Positions 30,501 to 42,500 of a stretch of 64,000 bases of DNA are shown piece after piece. A model generated the notes under the pieces. The model did not search any database. It worked only from the letters and a program-made list of their open reading frames with translations, and was not told the DNA's origin. The position numbers and the translations under genes were made by a program. Each line of letters opens with the position of its first letter. Position 1 is the stretch's first letter. Source of the DNA: Octopus vulgaris (Eukaryota). Location: assembly GCA_951406725.2 (NCBI GenBank), contig OX597824.1, forward strand, positions 98,766,001 to 98,830,000. The letters are read 5' to 3'.

Positions 30501-33500
30501 CAGTTTGTTCCATGCTTCAGCAACTCTCAGCGTGAAAAAATGTTTCCTAAAGTCATGGGAGTTGTGCTGTTTTCTGACTTTGTAAATATGTCCAATGAAA
30601 CAAGCATTCAAAATACACAAAATAATCAAAAGTAAAAGACAATCAAAGTCCCTCAAAAAATTCCTCACAAATGCTAAATTACCTTCCACAATTCCTACGT
30701 GAACAGTAAAAAAAATACGTCTGCCACAGTTGCAGGACCTGCATCAACCTTATTCTGCATCTTTAACTTTCATTTTTTCCTACATCTCTACCTGTGTGGA
30801 ATAAAATAACTTTGCTTTCCATATATATATATATATATATCATCATCATCATCATCATCATCATCGTTTAACATCCGTTTTCCTTGCTGGCATGGGTTGG
30901 ACGGTTCGACCGGGGATCTGGGAAGCCAGAAGGCTGCACCAGGCTCCAGTCTGGTCTGGCAGTGTTTCTACAGCTGGATGCCCTTCCTAACGCCAACCAC
31001 TCCGTGAGTGTAGTGGGTGCTTTTTACGTGCCACCCACACAGGTGCCAGGCGAGGCTGGCAACGGCCACGGTCGGATTGGTGCAATTTACGTGCCACCGG
31101 CACGGAAGCCAGTCGAGGCAGCGCTGGCATCGGCCACGATTCGGATAGTGCATTTTACGTACCACCAGTCCAGGGGTCTTGGCATATGCCGGGTGCCAGT
31201 CATAGGATTGGTTCAATTTCGATATATTATATATATACATACACATACATATATATATATATATATATATATATATATATACACACACAACAGCTTCTTT
31301 CGGCTTCCATCAACCAAAGCAACTCACAAAGCTTTGGTCAGCAAGATGTGATATTAGAAGAGGCTGAAGACACCACAAAGTGGAACTGAACTTGAAATTG
31401 TGTGGTTGGGAAGCAAAATTATTAAACAAGATGTGAGTGTGGGTGTGTGTGTGTGTGTGTGTAATTATATATATAATTACACACGCACACAAATATATAT
31501 TAAATGTATTGGAAATTATTCAACAATACTCAGGAAAACCCAAACATTTTTGCCAGAAATAAATCAATAAAAACAAAGAAAAATGAAAATGCTAAAAAAA
31601 AACTGCTTCTCTGACAACATTTTATAGTGGAACGTAAAACAAAGAATCAATTTGCTTTCGGAGTGTTTGAATAGCTGCAGAGAACTGAAAGCAAAAAAGG
31701 AAAAAAGTGCCGTAGGAAATGCACATATGCAAAGTGAATGGAATGCAACAGGTGTAAATTATCAAAAACAAAAGGAATGCTAAATAATTTCTCTTCTTTT
31801 TTTTTTCCTAACATTAAAATTTCATATTTAAAGTAAAACTAAAATTGGAAGATCAGTAAAAGAGAATGAGAAATGCCAGCGCCATACAGCAGCAGCAGCA
31901 GCAGCAGCAGAGTTCAGGAATCTTTCTTCAACAGTTGACACAATAATATAGAAATATTAAAAATACCAAAGACTGTAAAAGAGTTAAAGAACTATGAACG
32001 GCATCGTTCTTAACCTTGTGAAGTGTTTCATAAATTTAGTTTTCATACACAACAGACAAAAAAAAAGGAGAAAAAAAGTAAAAAAAAAAAAACCCATTCT
32101 CCTTATCAATCCAAAAGATGGACTTTCTCTGTGGTTGGTCATTTGATGTGATAGAATTAGCAGCGAAAACTTGCACAAAACCAATCTTTACCATTTCGAA
32201 TCTGTCTGTCCAAGAATAACTGAATTGGCACAAAAACAAGTTGAAACATTCTTTAGAAGTTGTCATTGCATTTTGTATCATTTGAAACTAATCATGTGCA
32301 CACTCCTCCTCCTCATCATCATCATTTAGCATTCTCCTTCCATGCTGGCATGGGTTGGATGGTTTGACAGGAACCAGCAAGTCAGAAGACTGCCCCAAGC
32401 CCTACTGTCGGCTATGGCATGGTTTCTATGCTTGGATGCCCTTCCTAATGCCAACCACTTCACAGAATATAACTGGGGACTGTTTTTCATGGCACCAACA
32501 GCTGTGAGGTCACCAAGTGACTTGTAAAGCAAAGACCCCCCACCCCAACTGAGCGGGGGATAGTAGTGAAGGGCATAGCTTTGTGCCAGGTAATGAGAGG
32601 TTGGAGAGTATGAATAGAGGGTCAGGAATAGGGGTGTAGCAGTAGAGGGAGAGATGTGGCTACCTGAGGGGGAAAGGGAGAGGAGACAAATAAGATGGTG
32701 AAGATATGATGGAGGGGGAAGTCCACCCAAGTTACAGGGAGGTATATGTAAGGGGAGTGGGGGACTGGAGAGGATGAGTGGGTGGGTAAATTCATGAGAT
32801 TACAAAAGGAGGGGGGATGATGGAGGGGGCACAGGTAAAGAGAGTGGGGCGTTAGGAGGTTATGTTTTGGGGAAGGGACTCAACAGGGACCCAGTGTGTA
32901 AACTGGTTCGCAAAGAGTGGGGGTAGGGGAGAAGGGAATGTAGCAAGTGGTGGACATGGGTGGACAGGGAGAGGGAGATGTTGAGAAGATGGAATGTTAG
33001 GGCATGGTTTGCCCTTTGGGGCCAGGATTTTACTTAGCTGGATGGGTCTTCTCAAGAAAAGCAATCATCTTGCTCCTTTGTCATCTCCTTGGCTCAATAT
33101 TTGATGATCATTTTTCCAAATCATTTTAACCAAATCAGCTAAAATATGGAATCAGCTAAAATATGGAATTTCCTACACAATATGTCTTTAATCTCTTTAA
33201 AATCTGGGTAACAAGTATTTTGCCAAAAATTGGGTGGTTCCCTTCATTTAATTTTCTAACCAATTCTTTAATTAGCATCTCATTTCATTTTATTAATGAA
33301 ACAAAAATTAAAATTGATCAAAATGGCCACTGAGCGGCATTCCTCACCATCTTCTTTCTTTCCCAAATGGGGGGACCGTGGATCTCCCCTACAACAAGAC
33401 ATATCTTCCAGCCCCTCATCACCGAGCACAAAGTCCCCTCATGCAGTATACTCCCTCTCCAGAGTTGAAAGGACTTCTCTTACGAGTTATCTGATGACCC

Positions 33501-39500: not shown

Positions 39501-42500
39501 CTATAAAATGTTGTCAGAGAAGCAGTTTTTTTTTTCAGCATTCTTGTTTTTTTGTTGTTGTTTTTACATTTTTTTAATTGATTTACTTCTGAAAAAATAT
39601 TCAGGTTTTCTTGAGTGTTGTTGAATATTTTTTAACGTATCTTTACATATAGATAGATAAATAGATATATGAAACCATCATCATCATCTCCATGGTGACA
39701 TCGGCTGCATAGTTAGGCAGAATTCAATGGTTCCGAGCACTGCACTGTGCTCCAGTATCTGTTTTGTCAGGGTCCCTCCTACGGCTGGATGCTCTTCCTA
39801 ACACCAACCACTTTACAGAGTGCTCCACTGGGTGCCTTTTATGTGGCACCAGCAACAGAGAAGCCACCATGTAACTTGCAAGACTAAAAATGGTCCTCGA
39901 TTGAGCAGAAGCATGGGGGAGAGTGGATTGGCTTTATGCTGAGGGATTAAAGTATGATGGGGGGGGGGGAGCAAGAAGGGGTTGCTTGCTGTTGTATCAT
40001 ACCCAGCATTAGATCAGGGTGAATGGGGGTAGAGCTGGGAGAAAAGATAAATATGGTGATGATAAGGTATGAACACATACCTGCAAAATAAAAAAAAATC
40101 AAACATAAGACAAAGGGACAGAGGACTGAAAAGGGGTGGGGGTGAGTGGGTAAGAGTGTGAGAGGAACATGGCAAATCGTTAAAACAAGAAGGTACAGGT
40201 GAATGTAGTGAATGGTGAACAAAGGTGGACGTGTATACCTAAGTTGTGGACACATAATTACATATGTATACACAGGGTGTGGTGAATAAATTGTCGTCTA
40301 AATTACACAAAAATGAAAATAACACTAACATCTCATTTTAACAGATATATTTACCAAAATTATATAATAAAAGGATCTCGAAATATTAAAGAGTAAATTT
40401 ATTCAATAAAATCGCCATTGGCTTCAACCATGGCCTCCAGACGACTTCGGAATCTCCTGCAACTCTTCTGGATGGTCTCCTTCTTTAAGTCGGTGAATGC
40501 TGCCATAATCCTTGCCTTCAGTTCATACCTTAAAATGCTGAACCTTACGAAGGAGATAACAGGGGGCTGAGATATGTGGTGCATTGCCATACTCAAGCAG
40601 ACATGCCCACCACAACAGAATTGGGATTGTAAAGCCAAGGTGCCATGTAAAAGGCAATAGTGTGAGTGCTGGTGCCCACGTCAAAGACATCCAGTACACT
40701 CTGTGGAATGGTTGGTGTTAGGAAGGGCATCCAGCTATAGAAACTAAGCTAAAACAGGGTATGGTACCCTGGTGGAGCCTCTGGCCTTGCCACTTCCTGT
40801 CAAGCCATCTAACCCATGTCAGCATGGAAAACAGACGTTAAATGTTGTTGTTGATAATGATGAGATATACATGTATGTATATATATATATATATATATAT
40901 ATATATATATATATATATATATATATATCAGATGCTCAGGAACAATAAACACTGAAAATGTTCTGAGACCAACTTCCGTCACTTTCCAGGGAGAAAAACT
41001 AGAAATAGTTGATAGTTTCCATTACCTAGGTGACCAAGTCAGCAGCGGGGGCGGGTGTGCTGAAAGTGTAACTGCTAGAGTAAGAATAGCTTGGGCAAAG
41101 TTCAGAGAGCTCTTACCTCTGCTGGTGACAAAAGGCCTCTCGCACAGAGTGAAAGGCAGACTGTATGATGCGTGTGTACGAACAGCCATGCTACATGGCA
41201 GTGAAACATGGGCCGTGACTGCTGAGGATATGCATAAGCTCGCAAGAAATGAAGCCAGTATGCTCCGATGGATGTGTAATGTCAGTACTCATACTCGGCA
41301 GAGTGTAAGTACCTTGAGAGAAAAGCTGGACCTAAGAAGCATCAGTTGTGGTGTGCAAGAGAGACGTTTGCGCTGGTATGGTCATGTGGCGAGAATGGAT
41401 GAAGATAGTTGTGTGAAAAAGTGCCACACCCTAGCGGTTGAGGGAACCTGTGGAAGAGGCAGACCCAGGAAAACCTGGGACGAGGTGGTGAAGCACAACC
41501 TTCGAACTTTAGGTCTCACTGAGGAAATGACTAGAGACCGAGTCCTCTGGAAGTGTGCTGTGCGCGAGAAGACCCGGCAGGACAAGTGAGTCCATAACCC
41601 GTGGCCTTCTACATGTGATGGAGCCAGCCTACGTATGCATACCTTCCCTTCTTGGGACACAAAACTCTACTTGTGAAGACCTGTTGAGGCAAGTGACGAT
41701 CAGAATCGAAATCAATCAATGGAAATTGCAGATGTGTTACCAGTGCTGGTGGCATGTAAGAGAAGATTCCGTTTCGCGACCGTTGCCAGCACCGCCCCGT
41801 TTCGTGTCCGTTGCCAGCCTCGCCTGGCCCTTGTGCCGGTGGCACATAAAAAGCACCATCCGTTCGTGGCCGTTTGCCAGCTCTGTCTGGCACCTGTGCA
41901 GGTGGCACGTAAAAAGCACCCACTACACTCTCGGAGTGGTTGGCGTTAGGAAGGGCATCCAGCTGTAGAAACTCTGCCAGATTTGACTGGGCCTGATGAA
42001 GCCTTCTGGCTTCACAGACCCCAGTAGAACCGTCCAACCCATGCTAGCATGGAAAACTGACGCTAAACGATGATGATGATGATGATGATGATATATATAT
42101 ATATATATATATATATATATATATATATATATCATCATCATCATTTAATGTCTGTTTTCTATACTGGCATGGGTAGGACAGTTTGACAGGAACTGTGGAT
42201 GCCCTTCTTGACACCAACCACTCTACCGAGTGTACTGGGTGTTTTATATATGTCACTACCATATTATAGAAACATATATATATATCATCATCGTTTAACG
42301 TCCGATGATATATATATATCTATAATATGGTGGTGCCATATAAAAAAAAAAAGTAATATGTGACAATTATTCGGTAGCCATGATAAAACTCTGAGTTTTG
42401 GATGCCGAGGTGGCATCTCTTCAGTTATCCGGCCATCAGCGTGGATTTCCACCTCGGCATCCAAAACTCAGAATAATTGTAACATATTATTTCACAGATA

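What the first reader, a model, noticed from the sequence alone, without database searches (positions are those of the whole stretch)
31517..39627. Long inverted repeat brackets a symmetric 360-nt exon cassette (BBS1 exons 7-9): candidate circRNA / skipping switch
Seen: two inverted copies of ~800 bp of otherwise non-transposon-looking sequence sit in introns 6 and 9; the inner end of one arm is only ~350 nt from the exon 7 acceptor. The enclosed exons total 132+107+121 = 360 nt and begin and end in phase 0. Established: long complementary intronic arms drive back-splicing and multi-exon skipping. Inference: pairing in the pre-mRNA would give (a) a 360-nt circRNA whose BBS1 frame closes on itself with no stop and contains in-frame ATGs (TCMNT, MKVP), so it could in principle be translated in rolling-circle fashion, and (b) an in-frame BBS1 isoform lacking 120 aa of the beta-propeller region.
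Basis: partly seen in the sequence, partly recalled or inferred. Interest (0 to 1): 0.82.

Follow-up and report, generated by a model that had tools for sequence, protein, structure and literature searches.

The report
Inverted intron duplication in octopus BBS1
Two matching 850-base stretches lie in opposite orientation in two introns of the octopus cilia gene BBS1, most likely a local DNA duplication later kept alike by gene conversion; the transcript would fold around three exons, but nothing yet shows a circular RNA or a splicing switch.

Summary
Arms 31513-32338 and 38781-39631 are reverse complements (808 of 853 columns), occur only twice in the genome search, and bracket BBS1 exons 7-9 (360 nt, phase 0-0). 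The arms are a mosaic: 2 substitutions in 737 inner columns, 12 in 80 outer columns. That points to an older local inverted duplication whose core was recently overwritten, probably by gene conversion. A direct-orientation duplicate nearby shows the same mosaic, so RNA pairing need not explain it. The frame arguments carry no weight. All 30 in-frame BBS1 exon blocks give stop-free circles, and the human gene has the same boundaries (c.592-c.951). Skipping would delete 11 of about 28 propeller strands, and no such isoform was among the listed relatives. The geometry does favour back-splicing, since introns 6 and 9 are by far the strongest intron pair. But octopus circRNAs are reported as few and low, and three other pairs this long and alike occur in 1.6 Mb sampled. 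No read-level evidence was obtained, so circle, skipping, editing and both-arm tests stay open. The scan has noted such layouts before in other genomes. Verdict: real, probably a neutral scar with possible low-level by-products.

The parts
38781..39631 (.). Intron-6 arm (5' arm in the minus-strand pre-mRNA), AT-rich two-copy sequence, 32% GC
31513..32338 (.). Intron-9 arm (3' arm in the pre-mRNA), reverse complement of the intron-6 arm
38788..39534 (.). Homogenised core of the intron-6 arm (partner 32331-31594): no substitution in the first 675 nt, 2 in 737 columns; other differences are repeat-length changes (CTG 11 vs 8, two T runs)
39535..39631 (.). Older outer stratum of the intron-6 arm (partner 31593-31513): 12 substitutions in 80 columns plus indels
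   Evidence: Fisher p = 3e-11 against the core; score 73 vs shuffle maximum 38
38600..38821 (+). Degenerate short-repeat (SINE-like; label is my inference) copy whose (ATG)n tail abuts the intron-6 arm; the tail occurs twice in tandem, 38739-38790 and 38791-38821, the second identical to the intron-9 version
   Evidence: (family D14)
32320..32540 (-). Second SINE-like copy (146 hits in the sample) whose (ATG)n tail forms the inner end of the intron-9 arm
38307..38438 (-). BBS1 exon 7, 132 nt, aa 186-229
36597..36703 (-). BBS1 exon 8, 107 nt
35167..35287 (-). BBS1 exon 9, 121 nt, ends at aa 305
43111..43228 (-). BBS1 exon 6 (its donor at 43111 would be used in a skip)
27869..28097 (-). BBS1 exon 10 (its acceptor at 28097 would be used in a skip)
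41802..42112 (.). SINE-like copy in intron 6, inverted to 30821-31139; a second, outer intron 6-9 pair (320 columns, 86.6%)
30821..31139 (.). Partner SINE-like copy in intron 9

Best explanation
This is a two-copy inverted duplication of about 850 bases of intronic DNA inside octopus BBS1, likely made by a local template switch between the tails of two oppositely oriented short repeats and likely kept alike by a recent gene conversion; the pre-mRNA would form a long duplex that is probably edited by ADAR and probably yields at most a little circle or skipped message as a by-product. Steps: (1) shown: two arms in introns 6 and 9 with a near-identical core and a 15%-diverged outer end; (2) shown: both inner ends coincide with (ATG)n repeat tails, one of them re-copied in tandem behind a 3-nt shared sequence; (3) inferred: origin by microhomology-guided template switching, then conversion, probably from the intron-9 to the intron-6 arm; (4) predicted: an RNA duplex of about 740 bp around a 6.4-kb loop; (5) inferred from published cephalopod data: intronic A-to-I editing weakens it and ordinary splicing wins; (6) inferred: skipped product non-functional, so no selected switch.
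For: Mosaic identity, 2 of 737 vs 12 of 80 columns substituted, p = 3e-11; outer homology real and not a dispersed repeat. A direct-orientation duplicate about 56 kb beyond the window has the same mosaic (10 substitutions in the first 245 columns, then none for about 1,090), where RNA pairing cannot be the cause. Transitions between the arms do not favour G-U pairs on the BBS1 strand (6 keep a wobble, 5 give A-C; low power). Three other inverted pairs of at least 600 nt and 95% within 20 kb in 1.6 Mb outside the window (1.9 per Mb, 95% interval 0.4-5.5). Splice sites around the cassette are as strong as the gene's others. Residues 186-305 are as conserved as the rest of the protein, gap-free in 52 of 52 aligned homologues (these were chosen as full-length hits). 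Octopus circRNAs are reported low, 296 in all, with most editing in introns and 3' UTRs (PMC9699675, passages and supplement 2).
Against: Among the inverted pairs of the 1.66-Mb sample only this one has arms with no other match in the sample, so it is unusual in kind. Introns 6-9 also carry a second inverted pair and have no strong within-intron competitor, which favours real back-splicing. No second species or individual was compared, so conversion is inferred from one haplotype; a homogenised core could also come from assembly polishing or from selection on pairing. Editing was not observed, only expected.
Confidence: 0.62

Rival explanations
1. The duplex is a working splicing element: it drives an abundant exon 7-9 circle and/or a 6-to-10 skip that lowers full-length BBS1 in a regulated way, and identity of the arms is kept by selection.
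For: Strongest intron pair of the gene by a factor of six, predicted duplex -1,346 kcal/mol, plus a second outer pair; one arm 342 nt from the acceptor; complementary intronic matches promote both outcomes in C. elegans (PMC8330042); an old duplication still has a near-perfect core.
Against: No bias to pair-keeping changes; the same mosaic in a direct repeat; other arm 2.8 kb from the donor; few, low circRNAs in octopus; most circRNAs are argued to be splicing error (10.1101/2023.11.08.566217, abstract).
Confidence: 0.12
2. The circle is translated round and round, or the skipped 461-aa protein is a functional BBS1 variant.
For: 360 nt, no stop in frame, two in-frame ATGs; the blades reported to bind ARL6 (1 and 7; PMC7018513 passages) lie outside the cassette by my reading of the model.
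Against: 30 of 30 in-frame exon blocks of this gene give stop-free circles; boundaries shared with human; deletion removes 11 of about 28 strands and orphans one; skipping of just the first of these exons is listed as the effect of a disease variant in human BBS1 (PMC10516351 table passage); 0 of 121 fetched proteins lack more than 10 of residues 186-305 (only the best 120 of 519 hits were listed).
Confidence: 0.04
3. Assembly artefact: one arm is a false duplication, or the core was made identical by consensus polishing.
For: 675 nt without a substitution; other zero-difference tracts occur in the sample; no independent reads were examined.
Against: No N in the window; 14 substitutions and several indels separate the arms, with a 15%-diverged outer end that an assembler would not invent; a 9-nt CTG length difference survives inside the core; exons stay collinear across both arms.
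Confidence: 0.12
4. The arms are two insertions, or the terminal repeats, of a rare transposable element.
For: Most inverted pairs in the sample are copies of repeat families; both arms start at a repeat tail.
Against: 2 places genome-wide for both queries; no open frame of 150 codons in the arms; 0 of 57 sub-threshold Rfam hits fall in the arms; the spacer holds host exons in their normal order.
Confidence: 0.07

Closest known systems
Exons flanked by reverse complementary matches (RCMs) that promote back-splicing and skipping: C. elegans zip-2, Y20F4.4, arl-13 (PMC8330042); inverted Alu pairs in human introns (recalled)
   Same: Complementary sequence in the two introns flanking a block of coding exons, with canonical splice sites at both ends.
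   Different: Arms here are far longer (850 nt), two-copy and not a repeat family; no junction, RNase R or deletion evidence; conservation across species not shown.
Interlocus gene conversion between inverted repeats or local duplicates, with risk of repeat-mediated inversion (PMC3966223, PMC3961182: search listing only)
   Same: Near-identical tract with a sharp edge inside an older, diverged duplication; arms 6.4 kb apart.
   Different: No outgroup was compared, so conversion is inferred from one haplotype; here a crossover would flip coding exons 7-9.
Intronic dsRNA substrates of ADAR in coleoid cephalopods (PMC9699675)
   Same: Long intronic hairpin in an animal where most A-to-I editing falls in introns and UTRs and circRNAs are low.
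   Different: Editing of these arms was not observed; arms are unique sequence, not repeats.
BBS1 (PF14779, PF23304; PDB 6xt9, 6vbu, 4v0m)
   Same: Full-length orthologue, single copy of exon 7 in the genome, cassette boundaries shared with human.
   Different: No BBS1 circle was evident in the search listings; the inverted duplication is particular to this locus as far as tested.

Membership tests
RCM-driven exonic circRNA locus | Complementary sequences in the two flanking introns | tested here: met
   808 of 853 columns, introns 6 and 9
RCM-driven exonic circRNA locus | Cross-intron pairing stronger than within-intron pairing | tested here: met
   1,331 bits vs 129 (intron 6) and 103 (intron 9)
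RCM-driven exonic circRNA locus | Back-splice junction reads, RNase R resistance | not tested
   No read-level data were obtained; the published list of 296 octopus circRNAs was not seen
RCM-driven exonic circRNA locus | Circle lost when one arm is deleted | not testable with these tools
   Needs a minigene or genome edit
Rolling-circle translated circRNA | Length a multiple of 3, no stop, in-frame start | tested here: met
   but true of 30 of 30 in-frame exon blocks as to stops, so uninformative
Rolling-circle translated circRNA | Cap-independent initiation and junction-spanning footprints or peptides | not testable with these tools
   No ribosome or proteome data
Regulated in-frame multi-exon skipping isoform | Isoform on record | tested here: not met
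   Cluster of P0001 has 2 members, both with exons 7-9; 0 of 121 fetched proteins lack the block; limited to annotated, best-scoring records
Regulated in-frame multi-exon skipping isoform | Skipped block is a removable structural module | tested here: not met
   Model (pLDDT 81.7, pTM 0.61): block holds 11 strands, by my reading blades 3, 4 and three strands of blade 5; the skipped protein itself was not folded
Regulated in-frame multi-exon skipping isoform | Weak splice sites around the block | tested here: not met
   Exon 7 acceptor 18 of 20 pyrimidines, exon 9 donor 6 of 9 consensus, within the gene's range (crude score)
Interlocus gene-conversion tract | Sharp-edged tract of near identity within older homology | tested here: met
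   2 of 737 vs 12 of 80, p = 3e-11
Interlocus gene-conversion tract | Arms more alike within a species than each is to its orthologue | not tested
   No second genome was compared
Transposable element or its terminal repeats | Further dispersed copies | tested here: not met
   2 places genome-wide (lower bounds); no third copy in 1.66 Mb
False duplication in the assembly | Copies identical throughout or next to a gap | tested here: not met
   14 substitutions, diverged outer end, no N; long reads not examined

The most novel reading that the evidence does not exclude
Gene conversion keeps a 740-bp perfect duplex alive inside octopus BBS1, and ADAR editing of that duplex sets how much pre-mRNA is diverted into an exon 7-9 circle and a dead skipped message, giving a tissue- or temperature-tuned dial on BBSome dose: a splicing switch maintained by concerted evolution of unique intronic DNA.
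Probability: 0.06. Interest if true: 0.7.

Novelty: new member of a known kind. Interest (0 to 1): 0.22.

Why it matters
If it is a neutral scar it matters little, though it is a clean natural test case. Coleoids have very high ADAR activity and few circRNAs, and this is about as strong a circle-promoting layout as a gene can carry. Whether a circle forms here would directly test the idea that ADAR suppresses back-splicing in octopus. It is also a possible mutational liability, since a crossover between the arms would invert three coding exons of a single-copy cilia gene. If a regulated circle or skip were found, it would be a rare case of editing-controlled gene dosage through unique intronic repeats.

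Tried and rejected
Sequencing runs: 24 runs listed for 31400-39700, all as contigs; no RNA holder listed on record; 6 rows from 4 studies hold half the words or more, which cannot tell one arm from two. No reads or contigs were laid on the locus, so junctions, editing, presence of both arms in other animals and arm conservation remain open. Rfam: 57 hits, all below gathering score, none in the arms; no known RNA gene in the arms. Coding content of the arms: none of 150 codons. Outer diverged end as a chance or repeat match: rejected. Older homology further in or out: only a repeat-tail motif (score 22, shuffle maximum 26) and a TA run. The in-frame block count (28 of 91) used some wrong exon ends and is replaced (30 of 91). 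Papers: PMC7619528 not held; searches for several human BBS1 splice variants together gave 0 papers; PMC11170770 passages were irrelevant. PMC9699675 supplements: no BBS1 mention in the text searched, and the large data archive could not be unpacked, so a circRNA or editing-site list there may bear on this and was not seen. Earlier notes on this genome or on this sequence: none.
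Full report
OBSERVATION. The window holds no N and is 37% GC. Self-comparison finds one long inverted match: 31513-32338 against 39631-38781, 808 of 853 columns identical. Searching the whole assembly with the arm core and with its outer end returns 2 places each, the two arms (the tool calls such counts lower bounds). The host gene is BBS1 on the minus strand. Exons 2-15 spliced at GT-AG sites reproduce residues 3-581 of P0001, a protein filed as BBS1 of Octopus vulgaris and O. 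sinensis and matching the Pfam BBS1 and GAE families. Exon 7 is single-copy in the genome. Exons 7-9 are 132, 107 and 121 nt, encode residues 186-305 and are phase 0 at both ends; the circle is stop-free in the BBS1 frame. The arms lie 342 nt from the exon 7 acceptor and 2,828 nt from the exon 9 donor, around a 6,442-nt loop.

ANATOMY OF THE ARMS. The 94.7% figure hides two strata. From the inner end there is no substitution for 675 nt and 2 in 737 columns; the differences there are repeat-length changes (CTG 11 vs 8, two T runs). The outer part has 12 substitutions in 80 columns plus indels (Fisher p = 3e-11). The outer part is true homology: score 73 against a maximum of 38 in 2,000 shuffles, and no comparable hit elsewhere in the sample. 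Both inner ends fall in the (ATG)n tail of an abundant short repeat, one copy on each strand. I call these SINE-like from their look; no call names them. The two copies differ in internal spacing (43 vs 86 nt between two motifs, matching a minor and a major class in the sample), so they are probably separate insertions. In intron 6 the tail occurs twice in tandem (38739-38790, then 38791-38821), and the second is identical to the intron-9 version, joined at a 3-nt shared sequence. Inference: an older inverted copy arose by template switching at the repeat tails, and a recent conversion tract, probably from intron 9 to intron 6, overwrote most of it. The arms hold no Rfam hit (0 of 57 sub-threshold hits) and no frame of 150 codons.

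HOW UNUSUAL. I compared 1.664 Mb in 7 blocks (the window with 200 kb each side, and six 200-kb blocks at round-number places; not a random draw). There are 47 raw inverted matches of at least 300 nt and 90% within 20 kb, 30 after clustering. Four are at least 600 nt and 95%, this one included. The three others give 1.9 per Mb (95% interval 0.4-5.5), that is some 1,100-15,000 in the genome. Long inverted pairs are therefore ordinary here. Against that, this is the only pair whose arms have no other match in the sample, so unique-sequence arms are rarer. A direct-orientation duplicate about 56 kb beyond the window shows the same mosaic, 10 substitutions in 245 columns and then none for about 1,090. 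Homogenised tracts thus arise here without any RNA pairing to select them, whether by conversion or by assembly polishing. Of 11 transitions between the BBS1 arms, 6 keep a G-U pair on the transcribed strand and 5 make A-C: no sign of selection on pairing, with little power.

The predicted duplex is -1,346 kcal/mol. Of 78 intron pairs, 6 have an inverted match of 100 bits or more; pair 6-9 scores 1,331, the next 214, and it has a second, outer pair of 366 bits. Within-intron competitors reach only 129 and 103 bits. In C. elegans, deleting such matches cut both circle and skipped transcript while full-length message was little affected (PMC8330042, abstract and section 8). Some back-splicing at this locus is therefore plausible; I put a detectable low-level circle at about 0.4.

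AGAINST A FUNCTIONAL SWITCH. First, the frame arguments are empty: 30 of 91 internal exon blocks are multiples of three and 30 of 30 give stop-free circles. Octopus residues 186 and 306 align with human 198 and 318. Human exon 8 starts at c.592 (PMC10516351 and PMC12650716, table passages) and an intron follows c.951 (PMC11202873, passages). The same 360-nt phase-0 block thus exists in human, so its symmetry predates the repeat. Second, the skipped protein looks dead. In the model (pLDDT 81.7, pTM 0.61) residues 186-305 hold 11 strands directly after the helical insertion; by my reading these are blades 3 and 4 and three strands of blade 5 of the seven-bladed propeller described in PMC7018513 (passages). 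The block is gap-free in 52 of 52 aligned homologues and as conserved as the rest (chosen from full-length hits). Exon 8 skipping is listed as an effect of a human disease variant. Third, no such isoform is on record in what I saw: the cluster has 2 members, both with the block, and 0 of 121 fetched proteins lack it (only the best 120 of 519 hits were listed). Fourth, the splice sites are ordinary. Fifth, in O. vulgaris circRNAs are reported as low, 296 in all and 200 of them in one tissue only, with most editing in introns and 3' UTRs and ADAR cited as repressing back-splicing (PMC9699675, passages and supplement 2). I could not see that list. A preprint abstract holds that most circRNAs are splicing error (10.1101/2023.11.08.566217).

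ARTEFACT. A false duplication is unlikely: no gap, 14 substitutions, a 15%-diverged end and a 9-nt repeat difference in the core. Polishing of the core cannot be excluded without reads.

WHAT IS OPEN. No read-level evidence was obtained and no second genome was compared. Back-splicing, skipping, editing, presence of both arms in other animals and conversion itself are untested.

PRIOR WORK. Searches for octopus with circRNA or back-splicing, BBS1 with circRNA (4 papers listed) and cephalopod editing with inverted repeats showed no title or abstract start on this locus; I saw listings only, and the library lacks most subscription papers. The scan's own notes show the same layout and similar verdicts in other genomes; these are unchecked and not counted as support. 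My conversion reading was recorded before that look-up.

VERDICT. Real, correctly described, and a good example of a known layout. Most likely a local inverted duplication refreshed by gene conversion (0.62), with an edited intronic duplex and minor by-products; a regulated switch 0.12, a translated circle or useful short protein 0.04, artefact 0.12, transposon 0.07. Interest 0.22.

Noticed in passing
L008:6094-7914 and L009:30-1939: Direct local duplication of about 1.9 kb, 98% alike, with 10 of its 12 substitutions in the first 245 columns: same mosaic as the BBS1 arms.
   Followed up: partly
L053:8304-9963: Tangle of inverted and direct copies of 400-600 nt with no substitutions; a very recent rearrangement or an assembly knot.
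   Followed up: no
L115:5267-7625: Inverted pair of about 680 nt, 96% alike, 1 kb apart, partly repeat-derived.
   Followed up: no
window 49572-50532: About 950 nt of ATT/ATC-type triplet microsatellite just upstream of BBS1 exon 2.
   Followed up: no
window 35618-35814 and 46556-46836: Near-perfect local hairpins (88% and 80% palindromic) in introns 8 and 2; further candidate editing substrates.
   Followed up: no
window 37445-38033, 15315-15907, 50533-50820: Copies of a dispersed repeat of about 590 nt, 90% alike, one in intron 7.
   Followed up: no
window 40864-41586 (+): Stop-free stretch of 241 codons in intron 6 that looks like a LINE reverse-transcriptase fragment (label recalled, not tested).
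   Followed up: no
window 21464-49432: Exon sizes 159, 134, 135 and 87 nt match human BBS1 exon sizes as I recall them (not checked by a call); a second filed isoform (P0121, 596 aa) differs only at the C-terminus.
   Followed up: partly
whole window: The window lies about 1.15 Mb from the end of its 100-Mb contig; the unique-sequence local duplications seen in the printed part lay mostly in this distal region.
   Followed up: no
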